In this document: piece after piece, positions 43,666 through 53,412 of the stretch
How positions within the stretch are numbered: the stretch's first letter is position 1
Layout: the number at the start of each line of letters is the position of its first letter
NCBI GenBank assembly: GCA_038245295.1
Contig: JBBRSP010000003.1
Coordinates: 256,001-320,000 of the forward strand
Length of the DNA stretch: 64,000 bases
Source of the DNA: Candidatus Binatia bacterium
GTDB taxonomy: Bacteria > Desulfobacterota > Binatia > HRBIN30
Direction: 5' to 3'
Program-made: the position numbers and the translations under genes
Notes under the pieces: model-generated
Told to the model about the DNA's origin: nothing
What the model saw: only the letters and a program-made list of their open reading frames with translations
The model's database searches: none

Positions 43666-44940
43666 TCAGAAGAATGCCCGGCTGACGAACCAGAATGTTC
43701 CAAGACCAGCCGTCAAAGCGGACCCGAGCTCGACCAGGAGTCGACCCGCTGTCGGGTTACGCCTCTGCAGCAGACGCAGCAGCGGCCAAACCAGACTGAT
43801 CACCGCAAGCTGACCGATCTCAACGCCCGCGTTGAATCCAAAAAGCGCAAACCCGAGACGCGTCGGGTCGAGACCGGCATCGGCGAGCACGCTGGCGAAG
43901 CCGAAGCCGTGCAGCAGCCCGAAGAGGAAGGCGATGGCCCAGCGTAAGCGCTGGCGGTTGCGGCTGCGCTGCAGCAGGCCGAAATAACCGGTCGTGAAAA
44001 ACGCCAACCCCAGCAGCGTCAATGCCGGCACGGCGCCATGGCCCGTCATCGCCATGGCTGCCAGCCCGGTTAACGTTACGCCTACCAGCAGCGGCACAAC
44101 ATTGCTGCGGCTGCTGAGCAGCCAGGCATTCTCGATCGCGACCAACGCAATCGACAATCCGATCAAGGCTTCGATCGGGGCGCGTTCGGGCCGCACGTAG
44201 CCAAGCACGGCCAGGGAAAGGGTGAGGCTGTGGGCGACGGTGAAGCCAGTAATCACGCGCGCGACGTCCGCCAAGGAACTGCCAAGCAGCAACAGCGCGA
44301 GCACGAAGGCCAGGTGATCGTAGCCTGTGAGGATGTGCTCGATGCCCAGCTGGATGTAGTCGATCAAGCTCGAACCACTCGTGGCGGCGGCGCTGCCGGA
44401 AGCCGGCGAGTCGAGTTGCCAGAGCGGCTGGCGCTCTGACAAGACCTGCTCGGCCGCCATCTGATGGTCGCGCTCGAGGCGGGCGAAGTGGAGATGCGAA
44501 GGCGCAACGTCGAGTAGGATCGAGTTGCGGATCGACAACGCACCGCTCGCCGGGCATTCGATCGTCCAACCGAGGGCCAGACGCCCGCTGTCTGCATGCA
44601 ACGGACGCGGCGCCCCAGTGACAGGACAGACGGCTCCATCCGCGAGGAGTTGCAGATGCCTGGTGAGATACTCGGCCAACATTTGGTCGCGTTGGGGATT
44701 ACCGGGGACACCCCACTCGTAGTGCGTCACATCAATGTCCCACATGCGCACGACGACCTGCGCGGTGCGTCCGCTGAGTGTCCAGGCGGAATAGGAGTTG
44801 CTGCGGTCGTGGGCGGCGGCCCGTTGCGCGAGCAGTCCTAGGACCAGTGTGAGAACGGCCGCAAACCGCCCTAAGGCAAGGCGGCAGTCATCTGTGCGGC
44901 GGGCCGTGGCTGCCTTACGGGTCGCTCTGTGCCCCGTCAT
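43666..44940 (-). CDS. HupE/UreJ-family (HupE_UreJ_2) membrane protein with periplasmic domain
   Basis: AAA-H cleavage site; GIEHILTGYDHLAF, FTVAHSLTL, FGLLHGFGFA, FNAGVEIGQL; ATGA overlap with the upstream gene. Confidence 0.88.
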   Translation of the reverse strand: MTGHRATRKAATARRTDDCRLALGRFAAVLTLVLGLLAQRAAAHDRSNSYSAWTLSGRTAQVVVRMWDIDVTHYEWGVPGNPQRDQMLAEYLTRHLQLLADGAVCPVTGAPRPLHADSGRLALGWTIECPASGALSIRNSILLDVAPSHLHFARLERDHQMAAEQVLSERQPLWQLDSPASGSAAATSGSSLIDYIQLGIEHILTGYDHLAFVLALLLLGSSLADVARVITGFTVAHSLTLSLAVLGYVRPERAPIEALIGLSIALVAIENAWLLSSRSNVVPLLVGVTLTGLAAMAMTGHGAVPALTLLGLAFFTTGYFGLLQRSRNRQRLRWAIAFLFGLLHGFGFASVLADAGLDPTRLGFALFGFNAGVEIGQLAVISLVWPLLRLLQRRNPTAGRLLVELGSALTAGLGTFWFVSRAFF

Positions 44941-45821
44941 GGGATTTCGGGCGCAATCGTCACATCGGCGCCATGGCGCAGTTCGTCGAGGTATTGGCGT
45001 AGCGCGTGGTCGGAGGCGCGCCGCCGGTATTCGGCGAGGATCTGTGGCTTGATGTCGTCGAACGGCGGCGCGTCGCCGGGCGTGCGATCGACCAGCAGGA
45101 GCACGTGGTAGCCAGTGTTGGAGCGCACCGGCTCGCTGACTTCTCCGGGCTGCATCGAAAAGACGGTTCGCAGCGCGGTTGGTCCGAGATAATCGCCGAG
45201 TTTGGCCGCCGGGAGTAGGGCATCCGGGAGCGGGGCGAACTCCTCGTCGCCGCCAGCGCGAACCGCTGCGAACGCTTCTCCGGCACGCAGGCGACGAACA
45301 GCGTCGGCGGCGCGTTGTTGGGCGGCGGCAGCGTCCTCCGGCGAGTTGGCCCGGAACCACACCTGGCGCACGTGCAGTTGCCCGGGGCTGGCAAAAAAAT
45401 CTTGCTCGCCCTGGTAGAACTTCTGCAATTCATCGTCGCTGGGCTCGGCCGTGTTTTCGCGCGCCGAGGCGGTTTCAATGACGGCACTCGTCAGGGCGCG
45501 GCGCACGCGTAGGTCGTCGCGCACGAGGCCCAGGCTGAGTGCCTTTTGGAGTAGCAACTCCTCTTCGATCATTCGATCGAGAACCTGACGGCGGATCTCG
45601 GCCGTGACCCCGGATCGGCGATCACTCATCAGGCCGTTGACGGCTCGTTGATATTCTTCGAGCCGAATCGGGACACCATTCACCCGCGCCACAGTTCCGG
45701 GAGGCAGCTGGGCCGCCGTCGTGCGACCGCCGAAAAGTCCAGCCGCCGCCATCCCCGCGCCGAGAACGATCGCCGCAAGCAGCAGCCCAAGCGGGCGTGA
45801 CGAAGAAGTCGGCTCCACCAC
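44937..45821 (-). CDS. Parvulin/SurA-like peptidyl-prolyl isomerase
   Basis: VARVNG..I, LDRMIEEELL, GEVSEPVRS..GYHV. Confidence 0.85.
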   Translation of the reverse strand: MVEPTSSSRPLGLLLAAIVLGAGMAAAGLFGGRTTAAQLPPGTVARVNGVPIRLEEYQRAVNGLMSDRRSGVTAEIRRQVLDRMIEEELLLQKALSLGLVRDDLRVRRALTSAVIETASARENTAEPSDDELQKFYQGEQDFFASPGQLHVRQVWFRANSPEDAAAAQQRAADAVRRLRAGEAFAAVRAGGDEEFAPLPDALLPAAKLGDYLGPTALRTVFSMQPGEVSEPVRSNTGYHVLLLVDRTPGDAPPFDDIKPQILAEYRRRASDHALRQYLDELRHGADVTIAPEIP

Positions 45822-45827
45822 TGCTGC

Positions 45828-48050
45828 TTAGGCGGCCGGCTTGACGAAGATCGGACTCGACCAGGCGCGCTCCTGGGTCGGGCTCAAACAGTCGTCGTCT
45901 GCCGGCGTGCGGTAGTCACCGAAACATGGCTTCACCGAGACACAGTCGCCACGTTCGTTGTAGGTGCAGCGCAGGCCGCCGGCGTTAACCGCCATGGTTT
46001 CCTCCTGGGCGGCGCGCACGTAGTACAGGAACTCGCGCTGGCCTGCGACGAACTCCGGATCTTCGAAGGTGATCTCGCAGCCGGCCTGCGTGTCGGGGCA
46101 ATCGAAGGATTTCCACGGGTCTTGGATCAGCGGCCCGATCGGTTCGCCCTTCGCCTGTTGCGGGCGGATTCGCACCACATCGATCTTGGTGATGCGGTAG
46201 CGATCGTCGGTCGGGTTGTAGCACTCGCCGCGGCACAGGTAGTCGAGGCGGTCGGGCGTCAACGCGCTCGTGGAGGTCTCGGGGCAACCTGGCTTTTGCT
46301 TGAAGGAACCGACGGCGCGGGCGCGGAAGCGGGGCGCTTCGCCGAGCGCCGTTTCCGAGCCCATTGGCAACGCGCCGCTTGGGCCGTTGAGCAGATCGAA
46401 CCACAAGAGAATGCGCGGCCCGCTGGTGCCATACACTTCGCGCTTCTTGAGAGCGTTCCAGATGGAGTCGCGATCGCGGCCAGGCGAGTGCACCGCGACG
46501 AGCCCGCCGGTCATGAAGAAAGATGCCTGACGCTCGAGCTCGAGGAACAAGAACGGTTGAATCTCGGACTTGTCTTGATCGAACTCCTGGGCCTCGTCCT
46601 TTACCGGACGGTTGAAGGCGGCACCACCGAGGCGCATGCGCCAGTTCTCGTCGACGGTACCGGCGACCTCGGTCATTTGCTTGCGGCGAAATTCCTTGAA
46701 GCCGGTTCCGGGGCGCGCCGAGTGGTTGTCGCTCGACGCCATGAAGCCAAAGCGGAAATTGCGTGGTTGACTTGGGTCATCGAAGTTCGAAATGGCCATC
46801 GCGTACTGCACGGAGTTCGCCGGGCGGTAGTTGAACGAGGGAAGAATGCAGTCGCGGCACTGTCCGCAATCCTTCCATTCCTCGATCTTTGCCCCGGAGA
46901 CAGTCAGGTGGCCGGCGAGTCCTGCCTTCATGTAGAGCTCACGAGCCTTCGCGACGCGGGTATTGCACTCCTCGGCAGGAATGTTGCCGCAGCGCGAGCG
47001 GATGATCTCGCCGGCCTGCCAGCAGCAAGGGAGGTAGCTCTTGGTCGGGTTCGGGCAAGTCAAGTTGCCTTGCGCGTCGACCCCGACCGGGCGCCAGTCG
47101 CGATATTCTTCCGAGTTACCGTGTCCCGAGTAGATCTCAATCAGTCCCTGGCGCGGGTCGTTTTCTTTGAGTTGCTTGTCAAAGGAATTGTCAGCCGGGG
47201 TGTAGAAGCCCCACGTGGTGCCGTGCGGGATGACCATCGACTCGACACCCAACTGGGCCAGTTTCTCGAAGAGGACCTTCGGCGTTGACGCCGATTCCTG
47301 GCAGGTGTCGGGCAGTTGCTTGGAGTCGACGCCCTCGGGGCACATCGGCGATTCGATGAGCTCCTCCTGGTAACGGCCGAAGTCGTAATAGCGCTGGCGA
47401 TTCTGCCAATCGAGAATCGGAAAGCGCAGACGTTGCCATAGGGGTAACTTTTGTCGCAGGGCGCCGACCAGGCGCTTGCTCATGGCGCTGATCGGACGCT
47501 TGGGTACTCTGTCTTCCTCGAGATCTCTGAGGATGACGTTCTTGTGGCCGTAATGATCGGCGGCGGTCATGCCGACCTGCGTCCACTCCCAGCCGAGGAA
47601 CGCCACCGTGTCAGGATTCTTTGGGTCACCCGCCAGCTTGTTGCACTGACGGATGGATTCCTTGGTCTCGCGCCAATGCTCCGGCGAGATCCCCTCGGCG
47701 TGATCGTTGATGCTCCAGAAGTCCAAGCCGGAACAGAAGCGGGCAAAGTCGCAGGCATCGGCTGGCGGGTGCGCCCCCTCGCCCTGCAGCATCGGTAGAC
47801 TGCGGATGAACGCGTCGGGAGAGAATGTCGTATGGACGTGCAGGTCGCCGAACAGGATCTGCTTTGCCCCGGCGTCGGGTGCCAGCGCCGTCGCTGCTTC
47901 CTTCTGCTTGGCGGCGCGCGATTGCACCACCGCCTCGGGCAGCCGCCCGCCCGCGATGGTGCCGGCCCCTTCGTGCCGTCCCTTGCATCCACCAACCAGC
48001 AGAACCGCCGTCATCGCAGCCGCCGCCACGGCCATGTGCACTCGAACCAT
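45828..48050 (-). CDS. DUF3604 lipoprotein (PHP-like metallohydrolase)
   Basis: VGGC lipobox; GDLHVHT, NDH, GWEWT, HKNV, SSDNH, REVYGTSGPRI, ERAWSSPIF. Confidence 0.88.
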   Translation of the reverse strand: MVRVHMAVAAAAMTAVLLVGGCKGRHEGAGTIAGGRLPEAVVQSRAAKQKEAATALAPDAGAKQILFGDLHVHTTFSPDAFIRSLPMLQGEGAHPPADACDFARFCSGLDFWSINDHAEGISPEHWRETKESIRQCNKLAGDPKNPDTVAFLGWEWTQVGMTAADHYGHKNVILRDLEEDRVPKRPISAMSKRLVGALRQKLPLWQRLRFPILDWQNRQRYYDFGRYQEELIESPMCPEGVDSKQLPDTCQESASTPKVLFEKLAQLGVESMVIPHGTTWGFYTPADNSFDKQLKENDPRQGLIEIYSGHGNSEEYRDWRPVGVDAQGNLTCPNPTKSYLPCCWQAGEIIRSRCGNIPAEECNTRVAKARELYMKAGLAGHLTVSGAKIEEWKDCGQCRDCILPSFNYRPANSVQYAMAISNFDDPSQPRNFRFGFMASSDNHSARPGTGFKEFRRKQMTEVAGTVDENWRMRLGGAAFNRPVKDEAQEFDQDKSEIQPFLFLELERQASFFMTGGLVAVHSPGRDRDSIWNALKKREVYGTSGPRILLWFDLLNGPSGALPMGSETALGEAPRFRARAVGSFKQKPGCPETSTSALTPDRLDYLCRGECYNPTDDRYRITKIDVVRIRPQQAKGEPIGPLIQDPWKSFDCPDTQAGCEITFEDPEFVAGQREFLYYVRAAQEETMAVNAGGLRCTYNERGDCVSVKPCFGDYRTPADDDCLSPTQERAWSSPIFVKPAA

Positions 48051-48185
48051 AATGTCTTCCCCTCCGAGGTTTGCTGTCGGTACCACGGGACGCCAACCTA
48101 AGTCAGCCCGGGCAGCATGCGTTTGCTGCAGCTCCACAACTGCGGCTGCCGATGGCTGACCTCAGCGAGGCAACCAAGATGGCGG

Positions 48186-48201
48186 TGGCACGGTCATTGC
48201 G
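48186..48201 (+). promoter_or_regulatory. sigma54 promoter
   Basis: TGGCACGGTCATTGCG; GCAGC-type inverted repeats at about 48102-48160 upstream. Confidence 0.8.
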
Positions 48202-48238
48202 TTGTACCATCTTCATCAGGTGATCGGAGGACGCGAAC

Positions 48239-48397
48239 ATGGGACTCATCGAAACACTCGCCATTAGCAACGCCGTATGGACCGCAAGCATCCCGGGACC
48301 GTCACCCCTGTGGGTGGTCGCTATTCTCGCATTGGCGGTGACGGCATTGACGATTGGTGCCACGCAACGGTTGCCCGGTACAGCGGTGGGGCACTAG
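48239..48397 (+). CDS. 52-aa single-TM peptide
   Basis: GGAGG RBS; MGLIETLAISNAVWTASIPGPSPLWVVAILALAVTALTIGATQRLPGTAVGH*. Confidence 0.6.
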   Translation: MGLIETLAISNAVWTASIPGPSPLWVVAILALAVTALTIGATQRLPGTAVGH

Positions 48398-48459
48398 GAG
48401 CGGATGCCGCACTCGCCTCTGCCCCACAGACGGCGGATACGGTATAGGACTTACCCTCT

Positions 48460-49731
48460 ATGGCGATCATCGGCTTCATTGTCGCTGTCATGTTGTTTCG
48501 TCACTACATGAAGCGTTTACAGAGCTCACGCGGATTGCAGAGGCCAAGCGAGCCTGACTGCGACTTCAAGGCGGGCGCAGTAAACTGGCAGACCGAGTGG
48601 CACCGCCAATGGGCGGGCAAGTTCCAGCGCCAGGCGGATCGCCGTATCCGCGACCTCGAGCGCCAGGCCGAGCGCCACATTCGTCGGTTCGATCGTGAAG
48701 CGCGACGTTGGGGAGTGCCATTGCGTGTGCGCTTGGAGCGCACCGAAGAGCCGTCGCCTACCACCGAAACAGCCACGGCCGTGCCCGAGGCAGACATCCA
48801 GCGACGTGCGCGTAAGCAGGCCGCTGCGGAAGCCAGCTTCTACATGCACATGATGAGCTACCTCGGCGTCTTGGCCTTCCTGGCCCTCATCAACATCATG
48901 ACGACGTCGTATCCGTGGTTCCTGTGGCCCGCCATCGGCTGGGGCATCGGGCTGTTCTCTCACTATATGGCGGTGTTCGGCTCACGTGCGGTGCGCGAAC
49001 GTTACTTCGAGCCGGCGGTTGAGCGCGAGGTGCGTCGCGAGAAGGTGGCCATGCAAACCGAAAAGATGGCGACCATCGACGAGTTGTCGGCGACCATCGC
49101 CCACGAGATCCGCAACCCGATCGCTGCCGCCAAAAGCCTGGTCCAGCAGATGGGAGAAGACGTGCACTCGGTAGAGAACGTCGAATACGCCAAGGTCGCC
49201 CTCGACGAGCTCGATCGCGTTGAACGCCGCATCTCGCACCTCCTTAAGTACGCCAAGGAAGAGGACTACACGTTCAACGCGGCGAATCTGGCCACGGTGG
49301 TCGACTCGGCGCTGACCCAGATGAAAGCCAAGCTCGACGCCGCCAAGGTCGTTGTGCAGCGCAATTACATCAGCGGTCCGACCTTGTTGGTCGACGAGAA
49401 GCTGCGCCAGGTGTTTGTCAACATTCTCGACAACGCGATCGATGCCTTCGAGAGTGTGCCGGAGGATCGGCGCATCGAAGTGTTCGTTGAAACGTCATCG
49501 CGCGGCGGCGGCAACCGGGCCGTGGTGCGCTTCCGCGACAACGGTGCCGGGATTCCCGCCGAGAAAATCGATCGCATTTTCAATCCGTTCTTCACAACCA
49601 AGGACAAAGGCACTGGCCTCGGTATGGCCATCTCCAAGAAAATCGTCGAAGCCCACGAAGGCACGATCAATGTAGTGAGCGAACAGGGGCGCGGCGCTGA
49701 GTTCATCATCAGCCTGCCGTTGCCGAAATGA
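48460..49731 (+). CDS. Sensor histidine kinase with 2TM domain
   Basis: FYMH..Y..INI..YPWFLWPAIGWGIGL.SH (2TM); AHEIRNP, NILDNA, DNG.GI, FFTTK..GTGLG. Confidence 0.9.
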   Translation: MAIIGFIVAVMLFRHYMKRLQSSRGLQRPSEPDCDFKAGAVNWQTEWHRQWAGKFQRQADRRIRDLERQAERHIRRFDREARRWGVPLRVRLERTEEPSPTTETATAVPEADIQRRARKQAAAEASFYMHMMSYLGVLAFLALINIMTTSYPWFLWPAIGWGIGLFSHYMAVFGSRAVRERYFEPAVEREVRREKVAMQTEKMATIDELSATIAHEIRNPIAAAKSLVQQMGEDVHSVENVEYAKVALDELDRVERRISHLLKYAKEEDYTFNAANLATVVDSALTQMKAKLDAAKVVVQRNYISGPTLLVDEKLRQVFVNILDNAIDAFESVPEDRRIEVFVETSSRGGGNRAVVRFRDNGAGIPAEKIDRIFNPFFTTKDKGTGLGMAISKKIVEAHEGTINVVSEQGRGAEFIISLPLPK

Positions 49732-49759
49732 TGAGGCACAGGATGTTCGGAGAATCCCA

Positions 49760-51181
49760 ATGACCGGGCGTATTTTGGTTGTCGACGACGAGAAGGCGCT
49801 GTTGCTGGCGCTGCGTGGGCTTCTCAGCAAGGAGGGCTACCAGGTCGAAACCGCCGGCAGCGGCGAGGAAGCTCTGCGCAAGATCCAGACCGGCAGCTTT
49901 CATTTGGTCGTGACCGATCTCAGCATGCAGGGAATGAATGGTTTGCAGCTGCTCGAGCAGGGGCGGGCGCTGGACCCGGACCTGGCAGTCATCATGATGA
50001 CCGCGTACGGTTCCGAGAAGATTGCCGTTGACGCAATGAAGCTCGGCGCTGCCGACTACGTCCCGAAGCCGTTCGACAACGACGAGCTGCGTGTCATCGT
50101 CCGGAAGACGATGGATACCGCCCTCTTACGGCGTGACCACAAGCGCCTTCTGCAGCAGGTCCAGGACTCGTTCAGCTTCGAACATATCGTCGGCCGCAGC
50201 CAGGCGATGCGCCGGGTGTTCGACACCATCGAACGGGTCGCCGACACCGACGTCACCGTATTGATCCGCGGGGACAGCGGTACCGGCAAAGAGCTCGTTG
50301 CCAATGCGCTCCATTACCGCAGTCCGCGCCGCGGCAAGCCGATGATCAAGATGAACTGTGCCGCCCTCAATCGCGAACTGGTGGAGAGCGAATTGTTCGG
50401 GCATGAGCGCGGCGCTTTCACCGGCGCCGTCGCAAGGCGCGAGGGCAAGTTTGAAGCCGCCGATGGCGGTAGCCTGTTTCTCGACGAAGTCGGCGATATG
50501 CCACTGGAGACGCAAGCAAAGTTGCTGCGGGCGATCCAGGAGAAAGAAGTCGAGCGAGTTGGTGGGAACGAGCCGATCAAGGTGGATGTCCGATTGATTG
50601 CCGCCACCAATCACGACCTCGAAGCGGCGGTGAAAGCCGGCCGCTTCCGCGAGGACCTGTACTATCGCCTGCGCGTCGTCGAAGTGCTCAACCCGGCGCT
50701 CGCCGACCGGCGCGAGGACATCCCGCTGCTGATCGATCATTTTCTGAAACAAGCGTCAGAGCACTTTCGCCGGCCGATCAAGCCACTGTCGACCGAGGCG
50801 CTGCAGGCCTGCTTGCAACACACGTGGCCCGGCAATGTGCGCGAGCTGCGCTCGGCGATCGAGCAGGCTCTCTTGCTCTCGCCGGGGCCAGAGATCACCA
50901 GTGCCGACCTGTTTGGTCCGCGTGCACCAGTCCCGAGTACCCCGATCAGCAATGGCGGTGTCGGGATCGGGTTTACAGCCGGCAACCTGCCGCCCAACTT
51001 TCGCGAAGCGAAGGATCGGGTCGTCGAATTGTTCGAGCGCGAGTTTCTGGCGCAGGCTCTGCGACGCCACAATGGCAACATCACCAAGGCCGCGGAGGAA
51101 GTCGGCATGTACCGCCAGAACTTTCAGCAGAAGATGCGTGACCTCGGCATCTCGGCCGGGGAAACGAAAGACGAATCCTAG
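49760..51181 (+). CDS. NtrC-family sigma54 response regulator
   Basis: Receiver (DDE, DLSM), GDSGTGKE, GAFTGA, WPGNVREL, Fis-type HTH. Confidence 0.95.
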   Translation: MTGRILVVDDEKALLLALRGLLSKEGYQVETAGSGEEALRKIQTGSFHLVVTDLSMQGMNGLQLLEQGRALDPDLAVIMMTAYGSEKIAVDAMKLGAADYVPKPFDNDELRVIVRKTMDTALLRRDHKRLLQQVQDSFSFEHIVGRSQAMRRVFDTIERVADTDVTVLIRGDSGTGKELVANALHYRSPRRGKPMIKMNCAALNRELVESELFGHERGAFTGAVARREGKFEAADGGSLFLDEVGDMPLETQAKLLRAIQEKEVERVGGNEPIKVDVRLIAATNHDLEAAVKAGRFREDLYYRLRVVEVLNPALADRREDIPLLIDHFLKQASEHFRRPIKPLSTEALQACLQHTWPGNVRELRSAIEQALLLSPGPEITSADLFGPRAPVPSTPISNGGVGIGFTAGNLPPNFREAKDRVVELFEREFLAQALRRHNGNITKAAEEVGMYRQNFQQKMRDLGISAGETKDES

Positions 51182-51260
51182 AACGGCGAGCCGACGGCCC
51201 GTCTCCGATGCCTCCTGTCGCGGAGCCGTACATCTGTGAATCCAGCCAAGTGCGGCGTGA

Positions 51261-51276
51261 GGGCACGCCGACTGCG
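51261..51276 (+). promoter_or_regulatory. sigma54 promoter upstream of pspA
   Basis: GGGCACGCCGACTGCG; shares GGCACG-N5-TGCGTT with the 48186 site. Confidence 0.65.
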
Positions 51277-51298
51277 TTTACGCGGAAGGGAGAACAGC

Positions 51299-52009
51299 AT
51301 GCGTATTTTCAAACGGATGATGGGATTGCTGCGCGGCCGTTTGCGGCAATGGGTCGGGACGCGGGAGAAGCACAACCCCGACGCCGTCTACGAAGAAGCA
51401 ATCGCCGATCGCTTGTCGCAGTATGAGCGGCTGCGCGAAGCGGCGGCTGGAATTCTGTACATGCGTAGCAAGCTCGCCAAGGAACTCGATCTGAAGAGCG
51501 CCGAGGTGCGGCGTGTCTCCTCGCAGCTGGCCGTCGCCGTCGATGGTGATGAGGATGACGTCGCGCTGGCGCTGATCCAACGGCGCGATCATCTCAACAG
51601 CGAGATCGATCGGCTGACCGGAGAGCTGAACGACGTCAGCAGCGAAGCCGAGGTCGCCAAGAAGAATCTTGCCTCGTTCCACGAGGAGATCACACGTCTG
51701 CGTGACGAGAAGACGCGGATGATGGCGCGGCTTGCCAACGCCCAGGCACGCCTGCGTTTTCAGTCGACATTGTCGGGTCTGTCACCCGAGGCAGATATCC
51801 AGGCCCTCGAAGCGGTGCGCGAACACGTGCACAAGGTGATGACGCAGGCCCAGATGGGCCGTGAACTCGGCGATGCTGATCTGGAACACCGCTTGAACGC
51901 TGTCCGTGACGCCGAGGCCGACGCAGCCGCACGCGCTCAACTGCAAGAGCTCAAGCGCTCGCGCCGCCGCTCGCTGGTTCCGCTCGTGATGACAAGCCAG
52001 CCTTCTTAG
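51299..52009 (+). CDS. pspA: PspA/IM30 family protein
   Basis: MRIFKRM amphipathic start, E..NPDA, DDVALALI, long coiled coils, A.AQLQELK tail. Confidence 0.85.
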   Translation: MRIFKRMMGLLRGRLRQWVGTREKHNPDAVYEEAIADRLSQYERLREAAAGILYMRSKLAKELDLKSAEVRRVSSQLAVAVDGDEDDVALALIQRRDHLNSEIDRLTGELNDVSSEAEVAKKNLASFHEEITRLRDEKTRMMARLANAQARLRFQSTLSGLSPEADIQALEAVREHVHKVMTQAQMGRELGDADLEHRLNAVRDAEADAAARAQLQELKRSRRRSLVPLVMTSQPS

Positions 52010-52019
52010 GCTGGAAGGT

Positions 52020-52658
52020 TTACCGGGCTCGTGTTCGACGCGGCTTCGAAGCTTGGACAGTGGCCGCGGCAGGCGCGGCCACCGCTGTCGGTAGGTGTTC
52101 CCAGCCGAGCAGCTGGCGGAAGTGCAGCCCGGCCCAGATCATGAACGGGAAGATCTGCGCGTCCATGGTCATCGTGAAGTTGGTCGCCATGGCGTAAAAG
52201 AAGCGCGCCCACGGCGCGAACTGCTGCGGTGCCCACTGGTTCGAATAGAAGAATTTTATCGCCAAGATGACGTCGAGCACCTGCAAACTGAGGGCGATCA
52301 ACAACCCGAGACCGACGCGCTTGAATTTCAGCCCCCAGGTTAGCGCCGGGGTTGCCAGTATCAGCGGGATCAGGAGGACCAGATTGGCCTGAATCCAGTC
52401 GGCCTCGATGGTTGGTGCTTGCGGACCGCGCGGAATGACGCGCGGCCAGAACTTGATGCCCTTGCCCTCGCCCCAGACCTCGGTGACTTGATGCCAGTTG
52501 CGATCCGACGATAACTCGACGCCGCGAATCGCCACGTTGACCACGCCGCCCAGGAATCGCGTGTAGTACGGCGCCAGATACTGCCAGGCGATGTACGTCA
52601 GGATCAGCGCCGGCAGTAGCCGGGCCAGGAACATCCCCGGCTTAATGCCCAGGTGCAT
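52020..52658 (-). CDS. Exosortase H-associated membrane protein-like
   Basis: LIPLILATP..W..K..GLGL..Q; overlaps the end of the exosortase gene (alternative start 52634). Confidence 0.6.
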   Translation of the reverse strand: MHLGIKPGMFLARLLPALILTYIAWQYLAPYYTRFLGGVVNVAIRGVELSSDRNWHQVTEVWGEGKGIKFWPRVIPRGPQAPTIEADWIQANLVLLIPLILATPALTWGLKFKRVGLGLLIALSLQVLDVILAIKFFYSNQWAPQQFAPWARFFYAMATNFTMTMDAQIFPFMIWAGLHFRQLLGWEHLPTAVAAPAAATVQASKPRRTRAR

Positions 52659-53184
52659 TGGCGAAACGGCCTGCCCAGAAGAGCCACGTGGCGATCGCAA
52701 TGGCGACGACGATCGATTGGGCGACGTAGACGTGGGTGTCGTGAAAATACTGATTGGCGAAGAGGCCGATCAGGAAGAGGCTGATGACACGCACGATGTT
52801 GAAGGAGTGGATGACGACGAAACCGAGGCCCATTCCGATGAAACGCGCGCGCCACGATGCCGGATAGGCACACACGGCGGCAAAGTAGATTGCTGTAGGC
52901 ACGGCCCCGGAACACGCTTCGCTGACCTCGACGATGAAGTCCCCGGACGACATCCGCGTGCCGTCGACCAACAACGGGAAATGCATCGGACCGGACAGCA
53001 GCTGCAAAAATCCCCCGGCGACCCAAGCCGCCAATCGGGCCATGCCCCACGCGAGGTTCATCCGGTTGGCGATCGGCGCGTAATCCGTCGCCATGAAGAA
53101 GGCGAAGATCAAACCCATGAACGTTGCCACCACGCGGATGGTCGGCCACATTTCGAGAAAACGCTTACGCAAAAAGTTCAGCAT
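52642..53184 (-). CDS. xrtH: Exosortase (XrtH-like)
   Basis: Cys-Arg-His triad: EACSG, NIVRV, HVYVAQ; AYPASW..R..G. Confidence 0.8.
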   Translation of the reverse strand: MLNFLRKRFLEMWPTIRVVATFMGLIFAFFMATDYAPIANRMNLAWGMARLAAWVAGGFLQLLSGPMHFPLLVDGTRMSSGDFIVEVSEACSGAVPTAIYFAAVCAYPASWRARFIGMGLGFVVIHSFNIVRVISLFLIGLFANQYFHDTHVYVAQSIVVAIAIATWLFWAGRFANAPGH

Positions 53185-53234
53185 GGTTCAGGAACGCGAC
53201 GCGAGTGTGGCGACGGGCCTCGGTGAAGTCAATG

Positions 53235-53363
53235 TCATTTGGCCATTTGGTCATTTGGCCATCTAGTCATTTAGCCATTTAGCCATTTGGTCGGCTGGTC
53301 AAGGTGGCGTACGCGAGGCATCGGCGGCGCAAGAGGGCCATTTGGCAAAATGGCAAAATGACC
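53235..53363. repeat. 8-nt tandem repeat (Y)CAT(Y)T(R)G x7 plus inverted copies
   Basis: tcatttgg ccatttgg tcatttgg ccatctag tcatttag ccatttag ccatttgg; downstream caaaatgg caaaatga. Confidence 0.8.
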
Positions 53364-53412
53364 AGTCGGCCCGATGACCAGGCGGCAAAATGTCTCTAAT
53401 GTCGTTCCCCGC

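What the first reader, a model, noticed from the sequence alone, without database searches (positions are those of the whole stretch)
48102..52009. Hybrid Psp/Lia-like envelope stress module: sigma54 promoter, membrane peptide, 2TM histidine kinase, NtrC activator, sigma54 promoter, pspA
Seen: two sigma54 sites sharing GGCACG-N5-TGCGTT (48186 and 51261), a 52-aa TM peptide, a kinase whose only input is a membrane-embedded 2TM domain plus one TM and a coiled coil, a GAFTGA activator, and pspA. No pspF, pspB or pspC in the window. Known: enterobacterial PspA inhibits the receiver-less PspF, while Bacillus LiaH (a PspA homologue) is controlled by LiaFSR. Inference: this locus combines both logics, with phosphorylation-activated sigma54 control, probable autoregulation, and a peptide that may act as a LiaI/LiaF-like anchor or inhibitor.
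Basis: partly seen in the sequence, partly recalled or inferred. Interest (0 to 1): 0.8.

Follow-up and report, generated by a model that had tools for sequence, protein, structure and literature searches.

The report
Self-activating sigma-54 PspA membrane-stress regulon
This is a conserved four-gene cluster (small membrane peptide, membrane-embedded kinase, sigma-54 activator, PspA-family membrane-repair protein) behind one conserved promoter and an 18-base palindrome; the activator likely binds that palindrome to switch on its own operon and other membrane-protein genes, probably under membrane stress, a wiring not found in the two Psp surveys I searched.

Summary
The genes are as described. 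The module is conserved: the kinase is in 85 of 251 genomes of the class, this PspA clade in 75, both in 73. The clade is also in 134 of 201 genomes of a second class. The first sigma-54 site is conserved. The second is not: 1 of 59 related loci has any site before pspA, so this is most likely one operon. New here: a palindrome, YGCAG-N8-CTGCR (48127-48144), precedes the promoter in 51 of 53 held-out loci (shuffles expect 0.05). It predicts a regulon: three peptide-pair operons in this genome; in relatives, Toastrack (LiaG-type) genes, small membrane proteins, and pspA itself wherever it is detached. The activator lacks two of three residues of PspF's PspA-binding patch, so PspF-style inhibition is unlikely. 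The peptide is missing or degenerate in 7 of 20 loci and matches no family. It works like Lia using sigma-54 parts and belongs to neither system. Signal, binding and transcription are untested. The scan noted this operon before on other DNA (e1-5239048). Verdict: new variant of a known kind, interest 0.6.

The parts
48127..48144 (.). 18-bp palindrome YGCAG-N8-CTGCR, centred 50 bp upstream of the sigma-54 site; predicted enhancer (UAS) for the operon's own activator
   Evidence: 10/10 consensus match; found upstream of the promoter in 20 of 20 training loci and 51 of 53 held-out loci, shuffles expect 0.05; binding not tested
48186..48202 (+). sigma-54 -24/-12 promoter (GG 48187-8, GC 48199-200); predicted start near 48212
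   Evidence: full consensus match, site found in 20 of 20 loci; start site inferred
48239..48397 (+). 52-aa single-pass membrane peptide, first gene of the operon; no family
   Evidence: Shine-Dalgarno and ORF at this position in 13 of 20 loci; no Pfam or NCBIfam match
48460..49731 (+). histidine kinase: short N-terminal hydrophobic helix, Arg/Trp-rich helix, 2TM hairpin running directly into HisKA (H215-E216-x-x-N219) and HATPase_c; no periplasmic, HAMP or PAS domain
   Evidence: Pfam; invariant columns; AlphaFold2 model, mean pLDDT 68, one helix over 152-232
49760..51181 (+). receiver-AAA+-Fis HTH sigma-54 activator (D53, GAFTGA); not PspF
   Evidence: Pfam and NCBIfam: TIGR02974 276 bits against cut-off 444; YLW patch not kept
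51261..51277 (+). weak sigma-54-like string in the activator-pspA gap; probably not a promoter
   Evidence: score 8.2, no enhancer; not conserved
51299..52009 (+). PspA/Vipp1 (bacterial ESCRT-III) protein of a clade tied to this kinase
   Evidence: PF04012 over cut-off; five-helix model with best PDB matches Vipp1 and PspA; with the kinase in 73 of 75 genomes that carry it

Best explanation
The four genes likely form one sigma-54 operon in which the 2TM kinase probably senses a disturbed inner membrane and would phosphorylate the adjacent activator, which is predicted to bind the conserved YGCAG-N8-CTGCR palindrome and switch on the operon itself, pspA and a set of other membrane-protein genes. 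Shown by sequence: gene order, domains, the conserved promoter and palindrome, and the recurrence of the palindrome before other membrane-protein genes. Inferred: co-transcription, phosphotransfer, DNA binding and positive feedback. Shut-off is most likely by the kinase's own phosphatase activity (E-x-x-N motif), not by PspA binding the activator. Least certain: the signal. The predicted model runs the second hairpin helix straight into the phospho-accepting helix, so a change of hairpin packing in the bilayer would act directly on the catalytic core. The leader peptide is most likely one of several dispensable small membrane effectors.
For: Kinase and activator are adjacent in 20 of 20 relatives fetched, with pspA next in 14. 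In 61 loci with a 2TM kinase from a wider scan, the activator follows in 59 and pspA in 46; 9 of the other 15 are cut short. The activator lies upstream of pspA in 69 of 71 metagenome loci, median gap about 40 nt, and the two genes overlap in L036. Palindrome plus promoter: 51 of 53 held-out loci, shuffles 0.05, opposite strand 0; 59 of 85 kinase-bearing genomes against 6 of 166 others. Tandem copies are mostly 31-34 bp apart. In the three loci where pspA is detached from the activator and has a sigma-54 site, it also has two palindromes (L227, L228, L236). Of 30 loci returned by the motif in a second class, 9 lead to the kinase, 7 to Toastrack DUF4097 genes, 5 to small hydrophobic proteins and 2 to HlyD-type efflux genes. 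Ravi et al. describe Toastrack as a recurring PSP partner and the LiaG domain (PMC11237479). H215, E216 and N219 are invariant in 18 of 18 kinases; the Thr/Asn at this position is needed for HisKA phosphatase activity (PMC3510030 passages).
Against: No expression, binding or phosphorylation data. The genome has about 25 sigma-54 activators, so the palindrome is assigned to this one by linkage only. Two of the three peptide operons in this genome lie beside other activators, and one genome where the kinase was not found (G009) keeps a strong palindrome before its peptide. Leaving out the 8 peptide loci that were found through the motif, only 6 of 16 loci in kinase-bearing genomes have a good palindrome, against 1 of 6 in the others. 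A repeat of 234 copies mimics the palindrome in this genome. Twelve of 85 kinase-bearing genomes gave no match to this PspA clade, so PspA is not obligatory. Six of the 30 motif loci lead to unrelated enzymes and one was unassigned. The kinase model is of modest confidence (pTM 0.43). Kin are not independent, so all counts overstate.
Confidence: 0.72

Rival explanations
1. One reading: pspA has its own sigma-54 promoter, PspA inhibits the activator as it does PspF, and the peptide acts as a LiaI-type anchor or LiaF-type inhibitor.
For: A GG-N10-GC string lies 24 nt before the pspA start; chance about 0.75% for a gap this long. Y51 of the PspF patch is kept as Y186. Detached pspA genes in relatives do have their own sigma-54 promoters.
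Against: A site precedes pspA in 1 of 59 loci and there is no palindrome near site 2. L52 and W56 are both Arg here, and W56 is never Trp in the orthologues printed. The activator has a receiver domain. The peptide is missing or degenerate in 7 of 20 loci.
Confidence: 0.08
2. Same wiring, but the induced small peptide (or PspA) binds the kinase's membrane part and damps it, as MgrB does to PhoQ (MgrB recalled, not from a call).
For: The peptide is the first gene of a predicted positive loop and has one TM. Most Binatia loci that lack the peptide keep pspA, and most that lack pspA keep the peptide.
Against: The peptide is variable and was not detected in the Binataceae- or Myxococcota-labelled loci. 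The kinase keeps a phosphatase motif that could close the loop alone.
Confidence: 0.2
3. The kinase reads another cue (energy state, lipid composition, or a partner protein on its Arg-rich cytoplasmic helix) and PspA is only one of several outputs.
For: Twelve of 85 kinase genomes gave no match to this PspA. Some motif hits are dehydrogenases, P450s or oxidases. A phospholipid-methyltransferase-family gene sits in the operon in many Binataceae-labelled loci.
Against: The recurring targets are PspA, Toastrack and small membrane proteins, the cast of known envelope responses. The only input part shared by all orthologues is the 2TM hairpin.
Confidence: 0.15
4. The palindrome belongs to another conserved activator, so the operon and the other loci are co-regulated from outside and there is no self-activation.
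For: About 25 activators in the genome; G009 keeps the palindrome although the kinase was not found there.
Against: The motif tracks the kinase across the class (59 of 85 against 6 of 166) and into a second class, where the activator's recognition helix is also conserved. No other HTH in this genome is close (110 bits against 52 for the next).
Confidence: 0.08

Closest known systems
Bacillus subtilis LiaIH-GFSR
   Same: A PspA homologue (LiaH) induced by a membrane kinase and response regulator encoded beside it (PMC9239133, PMC11237479 passages). The LiaG-type Toastrack domain recurs in the predicted regulon of relatives.
   Different: The regulator here is a receiver-AAA+-Fis sigma-54 activator, not REC-wHTH. 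The kinase is 2TM-HisKA with no HAMP match. No LiaF- or LiaI-like family match in the operon, and no Toastrack match in this genome.
Enterobacterial and Desulfovibrio Psp system (PspF, pspABC)
   Same: Sigma-54 promoter and an enhancer-binding activator controlling pspA.
   Different: PspF lacks an N-terminal regulatory domain and is encoded divergently. Here the activator has a receiver and is in line with pspA. No PspB or PspC match. The PspA-binding YLW patch is not kept. This PspA scores 26 bits against the 243 cut-off of TIGR02977.
Actinobacterial PspA-PspAA-HisKin-REC and PspC-fused kinases
   Same: pspA in an operon with a membrane kinase; a small membrane domain fused to a kinase as its input.
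   Different: All 12 kinase mentions in the supplement of PMC11237479 go with REC+wHTH and all 3 NtrC mentions are PspF. The input here is 2TM; no similarity to E. coli PspC (probability 0.5%).
ZraS/ZraR, AtoS/AtoC type sigma-54 two-component pairs
   Same: Closest characterised catalytic cores: AtoS and ZraS models and the ZraS structure rank first for the kinase; AtoC and NtrC for the activator.
   Different: All scores are below the family cut-offs; the input domain and targets differ.

Membership tests
PspA/IM30 (Vipp1) protein family | PF04012 over the gathering score and the hairpin-plus-short-helices fold | tested here: met
   63.2 bits against 33.9; helices 2-22, 27-82, 86-160, 164-190, 193-225 and best Foldseek hits Vipp1/PspA
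PspA/IM30 (Vipp1) protein family | oligomerises on and repairs stressed membranes | not testable with these tools
   amphipathic N-terminal helix (moment 1.44) is consistent; no assay
Enterobacterial Psp system | receiver-less PspF activator | tested here: not met
   receiver domain 107 bits; TIGR02974 below cut-off here and for all matches in the genome
Enterobacterial Psp system | YLW patch (Y51, L52, W56) that docks PspA | tested here: not met
   Y186, R187, R191; patch definition from PMC3791423 abstract and section 14
Enterobacterial Psp system | PspB and PspC sensors | tested here: not met
   no PF06667 or PF04024 match in the 96.6% complete genome; kinase N-terminus against E. coli PspB 27% over 19 columns only
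Enterobacterial Psp system | sigma-54 promoter driving pspA | tested here: met
   by sequence: conserved operon promoter and rpoN; transcription not measured
Lia system (LiaFSR-LiaIH) | PspA homologue linked to a membrane kinase and response regulator | tested here: met
Lia system (LiaFSR-LiaIH) | REC-wHTH regulator and TM-HAMP kinase | tested here: not met
   REC-AAA+-HTH_8 and 2TM-HisKA against the architectures in PMC11237479
Lia system (LiaFSR-LiaIH) | LiaF inhibitor and LiaI anchor | tested here: inconclusive
   peptide has no family match and is dispensable; binding was not tested
NtrC-family sigma-54 two-component systems | HisKA kinase with H, N, G boxes next to a receiver-AAA+(GAFTGA)-HTH activator | tested here: met
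   H215, N box 321, G1 360, G2 384; D53, Walker A 171, GAFTGA 218, Walker B 239
NtrC-family sigma-54 two-component systems | activator binds an upstream enhancer | tested here: inconclusive
   conserved palindrome with helical spacing; binding not testable here

The most novel reading that the evidence does not exclude
This is a third, independent wiring of the PspA/ESCRT-III membrane-repair response. A bare 2TM hairpin fused to a kinase is itself the bilayer-damage sensor, replacing PspB/PspC and LiaS/LiaF. It drives a sigma-54 regulon that recruited the Lia partner Toastrack and several unnamed families of 30-85-residue membrane peptides acting as membrane patches or feedback brakes, across two large uncultured classes. 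It would give the 2TM domain its first role as a stress sensor.
Probability: 0.3. Interest if true: 0.8.

Novelty: new variant of a known kind. Interest (0 to 1): 0.6.

Why it matters
How cells detect inner-membrane damage and induce PspA/Vipp1 is still argued over. The known answers are PspB/PspC releasing PspF, and LiaFS phosphorylating LiaR. This module has a very small candidate sensor (one hairpin wired straight to the kinase core), a defined promoter and a predicted enhancer, so the whole circuit can be rebuilt in E. coli and tested. The palindrome also gives a handle on unnamed small membrane proteins and ties Toastrack genes to PspA by regulation rather than by neighbourhood. All parts are of known kinds, and the scan had already noted the operon, which caps the score.

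Tried and rejected
Second promoter before pspA: not conserved. Kinase N-terminus as a fused PspB: 2 of 19 members gave weak Pfam hits (best E 0.06), but the profile match covers only the TM end (27%) and the segment is absent in distant orthologues; rejected. Kinase against PspC: nothing. Leader peptide as homologue of the 33-aa or 80-aa regulon peptides: 3.6% and 2.6%; not shown. The MHYT hits in 4 of 13 peptides were not followed up. The two other PspA genes of this genome have no promoter or palindrome of this kind. A 75-aa gene at C24 with a palindrome at -104: its homologues lie just upstream of the operon in 4 genomes but lack the palindrome there; left uncertain. Five of the 11 palindrome-plus-promoter placements in this genome are the repeat element and were dropped. 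ESM Atlas gave no usable hit for the 2TM region and only unnamed clusters below 0.8 for the 80-aa peptide. Sigma-70 promoters: none; no terminator on the + strand in 47900-52300. RNA runs: no RNA holder listed. A metagenome scan with the single PspA found nothing, and no PspA closer than 64% was recovered, so site 2 could not be checked in close kin. Literature: searches listed no paper on this wiring. Seen: passages, section 27 and supplement rows of PMC11237479; passages and section 8 of PMC9239133; abstract and section 14 of PMC3791423; passages of PMC4641369 and PMC3510030. The web app of the first and the OpARA data sets of the second were not seen and may hold such contexts.
Full report
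Observation. Pfam gives 2TM, HisKA and HATPase_c for the kinase; receiver, sigma-54 AAA+ and HTH_8 for the activator; PspA_IM30 over its cut-off for the last gene; and nothing for the 52-aa peptide. The PspA model has the five-helix layout and its best solved matches are Vipp1 and PspA. The genome (96.6% complete) has rpoN, no PspB or PspC match, no activator over the PspF cut-off, and two further PspA genes. The closest named relatives, at 60-75% kinase identity, are records titled Candidatus Binatia or Deltaproteobacteria, so the host class is inferred to be Binatia.

Conservation. An orthologous kinase was found in 21 of 40 relatives. I fetched wider DNA for 20 of them, leaving out G005, whose contig ends just after the kinase. 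The activator follows the kinase in 20 of 20 and pspA follows the activator in 14; five have no pspA there and one contig ends inside the activator. A wider scan kept 80 loci; of the 76 tallied, 61 carry a 2TM kinase, 59 of these the activator and 46 pspA, with 9 of the remaining 15 cut short. Across 251 genomes of the class the kinase is in 85, this PspA clade in 75 and both in 73. In the class of G263 (it includes G260 and G262, whose records are titled Myxococcota) the PspA clade is in 134 of 201 genomes. Variants: about 15 loci, mostly Binataceae-labelled, have a 600-nt insert between activator and pspA; seven were translated and one was tested, matching the PEMT phospholipid-methyltransferase family. 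Ten distant loci have two kinases in tandem.

Promoters. Site 1 is a full -24/-12 consensus, and a site is present in 20 of 20 loci with upstream DNA (the L043 pick was corrected). Site 2 deviates at -26 and -15, scores 8.2 against 13.5-26.5, and 853 places in the genome score as well. The activator-pspA gap in relatives is mostly 13-120 nt, the genes overlap in L036, and a site was seen before pspA in 1 of 59 genome loci. Against my reading, a site this good would arise by chance in this gap only about 0.75% of the time, and no close kin could be checked. I give it about one chance in six of being used.

The enhancer. Aligning the promoters showed YGCAG-N8-CTGCR within 170 bp upstream in 20 of 20 loci, often twice and mostly 31-34 bp apart; 4.6% of random stretches of the genome have such a match. 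In the window it is a perfect single copy at 48127-48144. On held-out loci, palindrome plus promoter was found in 51 of 53 (five more dropped for too little upstream DNA); shuffles expected 0.05 and the opposite strand gave 0. A fixed pattern hit 59 of 85 kinase-bearing genomes and 6 of 166 others; the reversed control hit 5. In the second class it hit 115 of 201 genomes, the control about 15. The activator's recognition helix is conserved over the same range, and no other HTH in this genome is close. That the activator binds it is inference.

Predicted regulon. In this genome, 11 placements pair a strong palindrome with a promoter-like site. Five are a repeat element that mimics the motif (234 copies), two are isolated, and four sit at -49/-50. 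Those four are the operon and three paralogous two-gene units encoding a 33-aa and a roughly 80-aa single-pass peptide. The 33-aa peptide has matches in 23 of 41 genomes. Its link to the palindrome is real but looser: 14 of 24 loci in kinase-bearing genomes against 1 of 6 elsewhere, and only 6 of 16 once the 8 loci found through the motif are removed. Two of the three copies here lie beside other activators. The best natural test comes from pspA. Among 71 metagenome loci, only three have a recognisable sigma-54 site before pspA; all three are loci where pspA is detached from the activator, and each has two palindromes. In the second class, 30 motif loci led to the kinase (9), Toastrack DUF4097 genes (7, all over the Pfam cut-off), small hydrophobic proteins (5), HlyD-type efflux (2), unrelated enzymes (6) and one unassigned. 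A Toastrack gene also follows the motif in G263 and in G034, of this genome's own order, though none was found in this genome. Ravi et al. call Toastrack a recurring PSP partner and place it in LiaG (PMC11237479, passages and section 27).

Sensor and shut-off. The model shows helices 2-24, 43-83, 110-148 and one long helix 152-232 that runs from the second hairpin helix through H215 (mean pLDDT 68, pTM 0.43). The N-terminal part is variable (39% column identity) and its hydrophobic helix is missing in the distant orthologues, which keep an Arg-rich stretch and the hairpin. The hairpin is therefore the likely sensing part. A PspB-like origin for the N-terminus was tested and rejected. E. coli PspA docks on the Y51-L52-W56 patch of PspF (PMC3791423, abstract and section 14); this activator has Y186-R187-R191. 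Twelve of 85 kinase genomes gave no match to this PspA, and a direct search found no orthologue in 5 of 5 such genomes, so PspA is not a required brake. H215, E216 and N219 are invariant, and the Thr/Asn at that position is required for HisKA phosphatase activity (PMC3510030 passages), which offers a simple off switch. The leader peptide is intact in 13 of 20 loci, absent or degenerate in 7, and not demonstrably related to the regulon peptides. Its binding partners could not be modelled.

Comparison with what is known. It works like Lia: a membrane kinase and regulator induce a PspA homologue. It uses the promoter class of Psp. It fails defining tests of both. In the supplement of PMC11237479 all 12 kinase mentions go with REC+wHTH and all 3 NtrC mentions are PspF. 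Section 8 of PMC9239133 mentions kinases beside pspA only for Actinobacteria. Desulfovibrio vulgaris uses a receiver-less activator (PMC4641369 passages). Searches listed no paper on this wiring; the surveys' external data sets were not seen. The scan had noted the same operon in another Binatia genome (e1-5239048). My reading was formed before that look-up and agrees with it; the few lines shown do not mention the palindrome or the regulon, and a word search for them returned nothing.

Verdict. A real, widely conserved and apparently undescribed variant of the PspA response: one likely self-activating sigma-54 operon with a predicted enhancer and a membrane-protein regulon. The second promoter and PspF-style inhibition are not supported; the signal and the peptide's role are open. 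New variant of a known kind, interest 0.6.

Noticed in passing
G000 C1:260219, C38:37929, C36:34086 (loci L055, L060, L059): Three paralogous sigma-54 units, each encoding an unnamed 33-aa and an unnamed 79-83-aa single-pass peptide, with the palindrome at -49/-50; matches to the short peptide in 23 of 41 genomes.
   Followed up: yes
L177, L180, L181, L182, L189 upstream of the peptide promoter: A second, related palindrome (YGCAA-N8-TTGCR) near -72, 22-24 bp from the first; a weaker site for the same activator or a site for another one.
   Followed up: no
L078:7764-8246 and about 14 other loci: A PEMT-family phospholipid methyltransferase-like gene inserted between activator and pspA, mostly in Binataceae-labelled genomes.
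   Followed up: partly
L100, L104, L105, L108, L113, L115, L118, L120, L124, L131: Two tandem paralogous kinases, each with a hydrophobic hairpin, precede the activator; possible heterodimer.
   Followed up: no
L097-L132, between palindrome and promoter: IHF-like sites (consensus recalled) in 7 of 18 distant loci; none in the window.
   Followed up: partly
G000 genome-wide: A palindromic repeat GCAGGCT-N-AGCCTGC in 234 copies that mimics the enhancer consensus.
   Followed up: partly
L037 (G038) just after the activator: A short reading frame that begins like pspA and breaks off; likely a pspA remnant.
   Followed up: no
L047:842-3386 (G000 C3, 40 kb from the window module): A second PspA-family gene (182 aa) lies between a vWA-domain gene and a membrane protein, divergent from a response regulator.
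   Followed up: partly
G000 C24:42594-42818: A 75-aa gene with a palindrome at -104 and a weak sigma-54 site; 77% identical homologues lie directly upstream of the kinase operon in 4 other genomes.
   Followed up: partly
L145, L162, L163, L171, L303, L306, L323, L324, L355: Further motif-led genes: a transglycosylase-associated (PF04226, below cut-off) protein, a HlyIII-family membrane protein and several unnamed 44-80-aa hydrophobic proteins.
   Followed up: partly
window 52020-53184 (-): An exosortase-family gene (best XrtH, just under its cut-off) with an overlapping unnamed membrane-protein gene converges on pspA; not conserved beside the module in the 20 relatives.
   Followed up: no
window 43666-48050 (-): DUF3604, a PpiC-type rotamase and a HupE/UreJ-like gene run divergently from the module's promoter; DUF3604 was beside it in 1 of 20 relatives.
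   Followed up: no
window 53205-53390: Short AT-richer intergenic stretch with repeated GGTCATTT/GCCATTT units; a similar stretch follows the peptide unit on C1.
   Followed up: no
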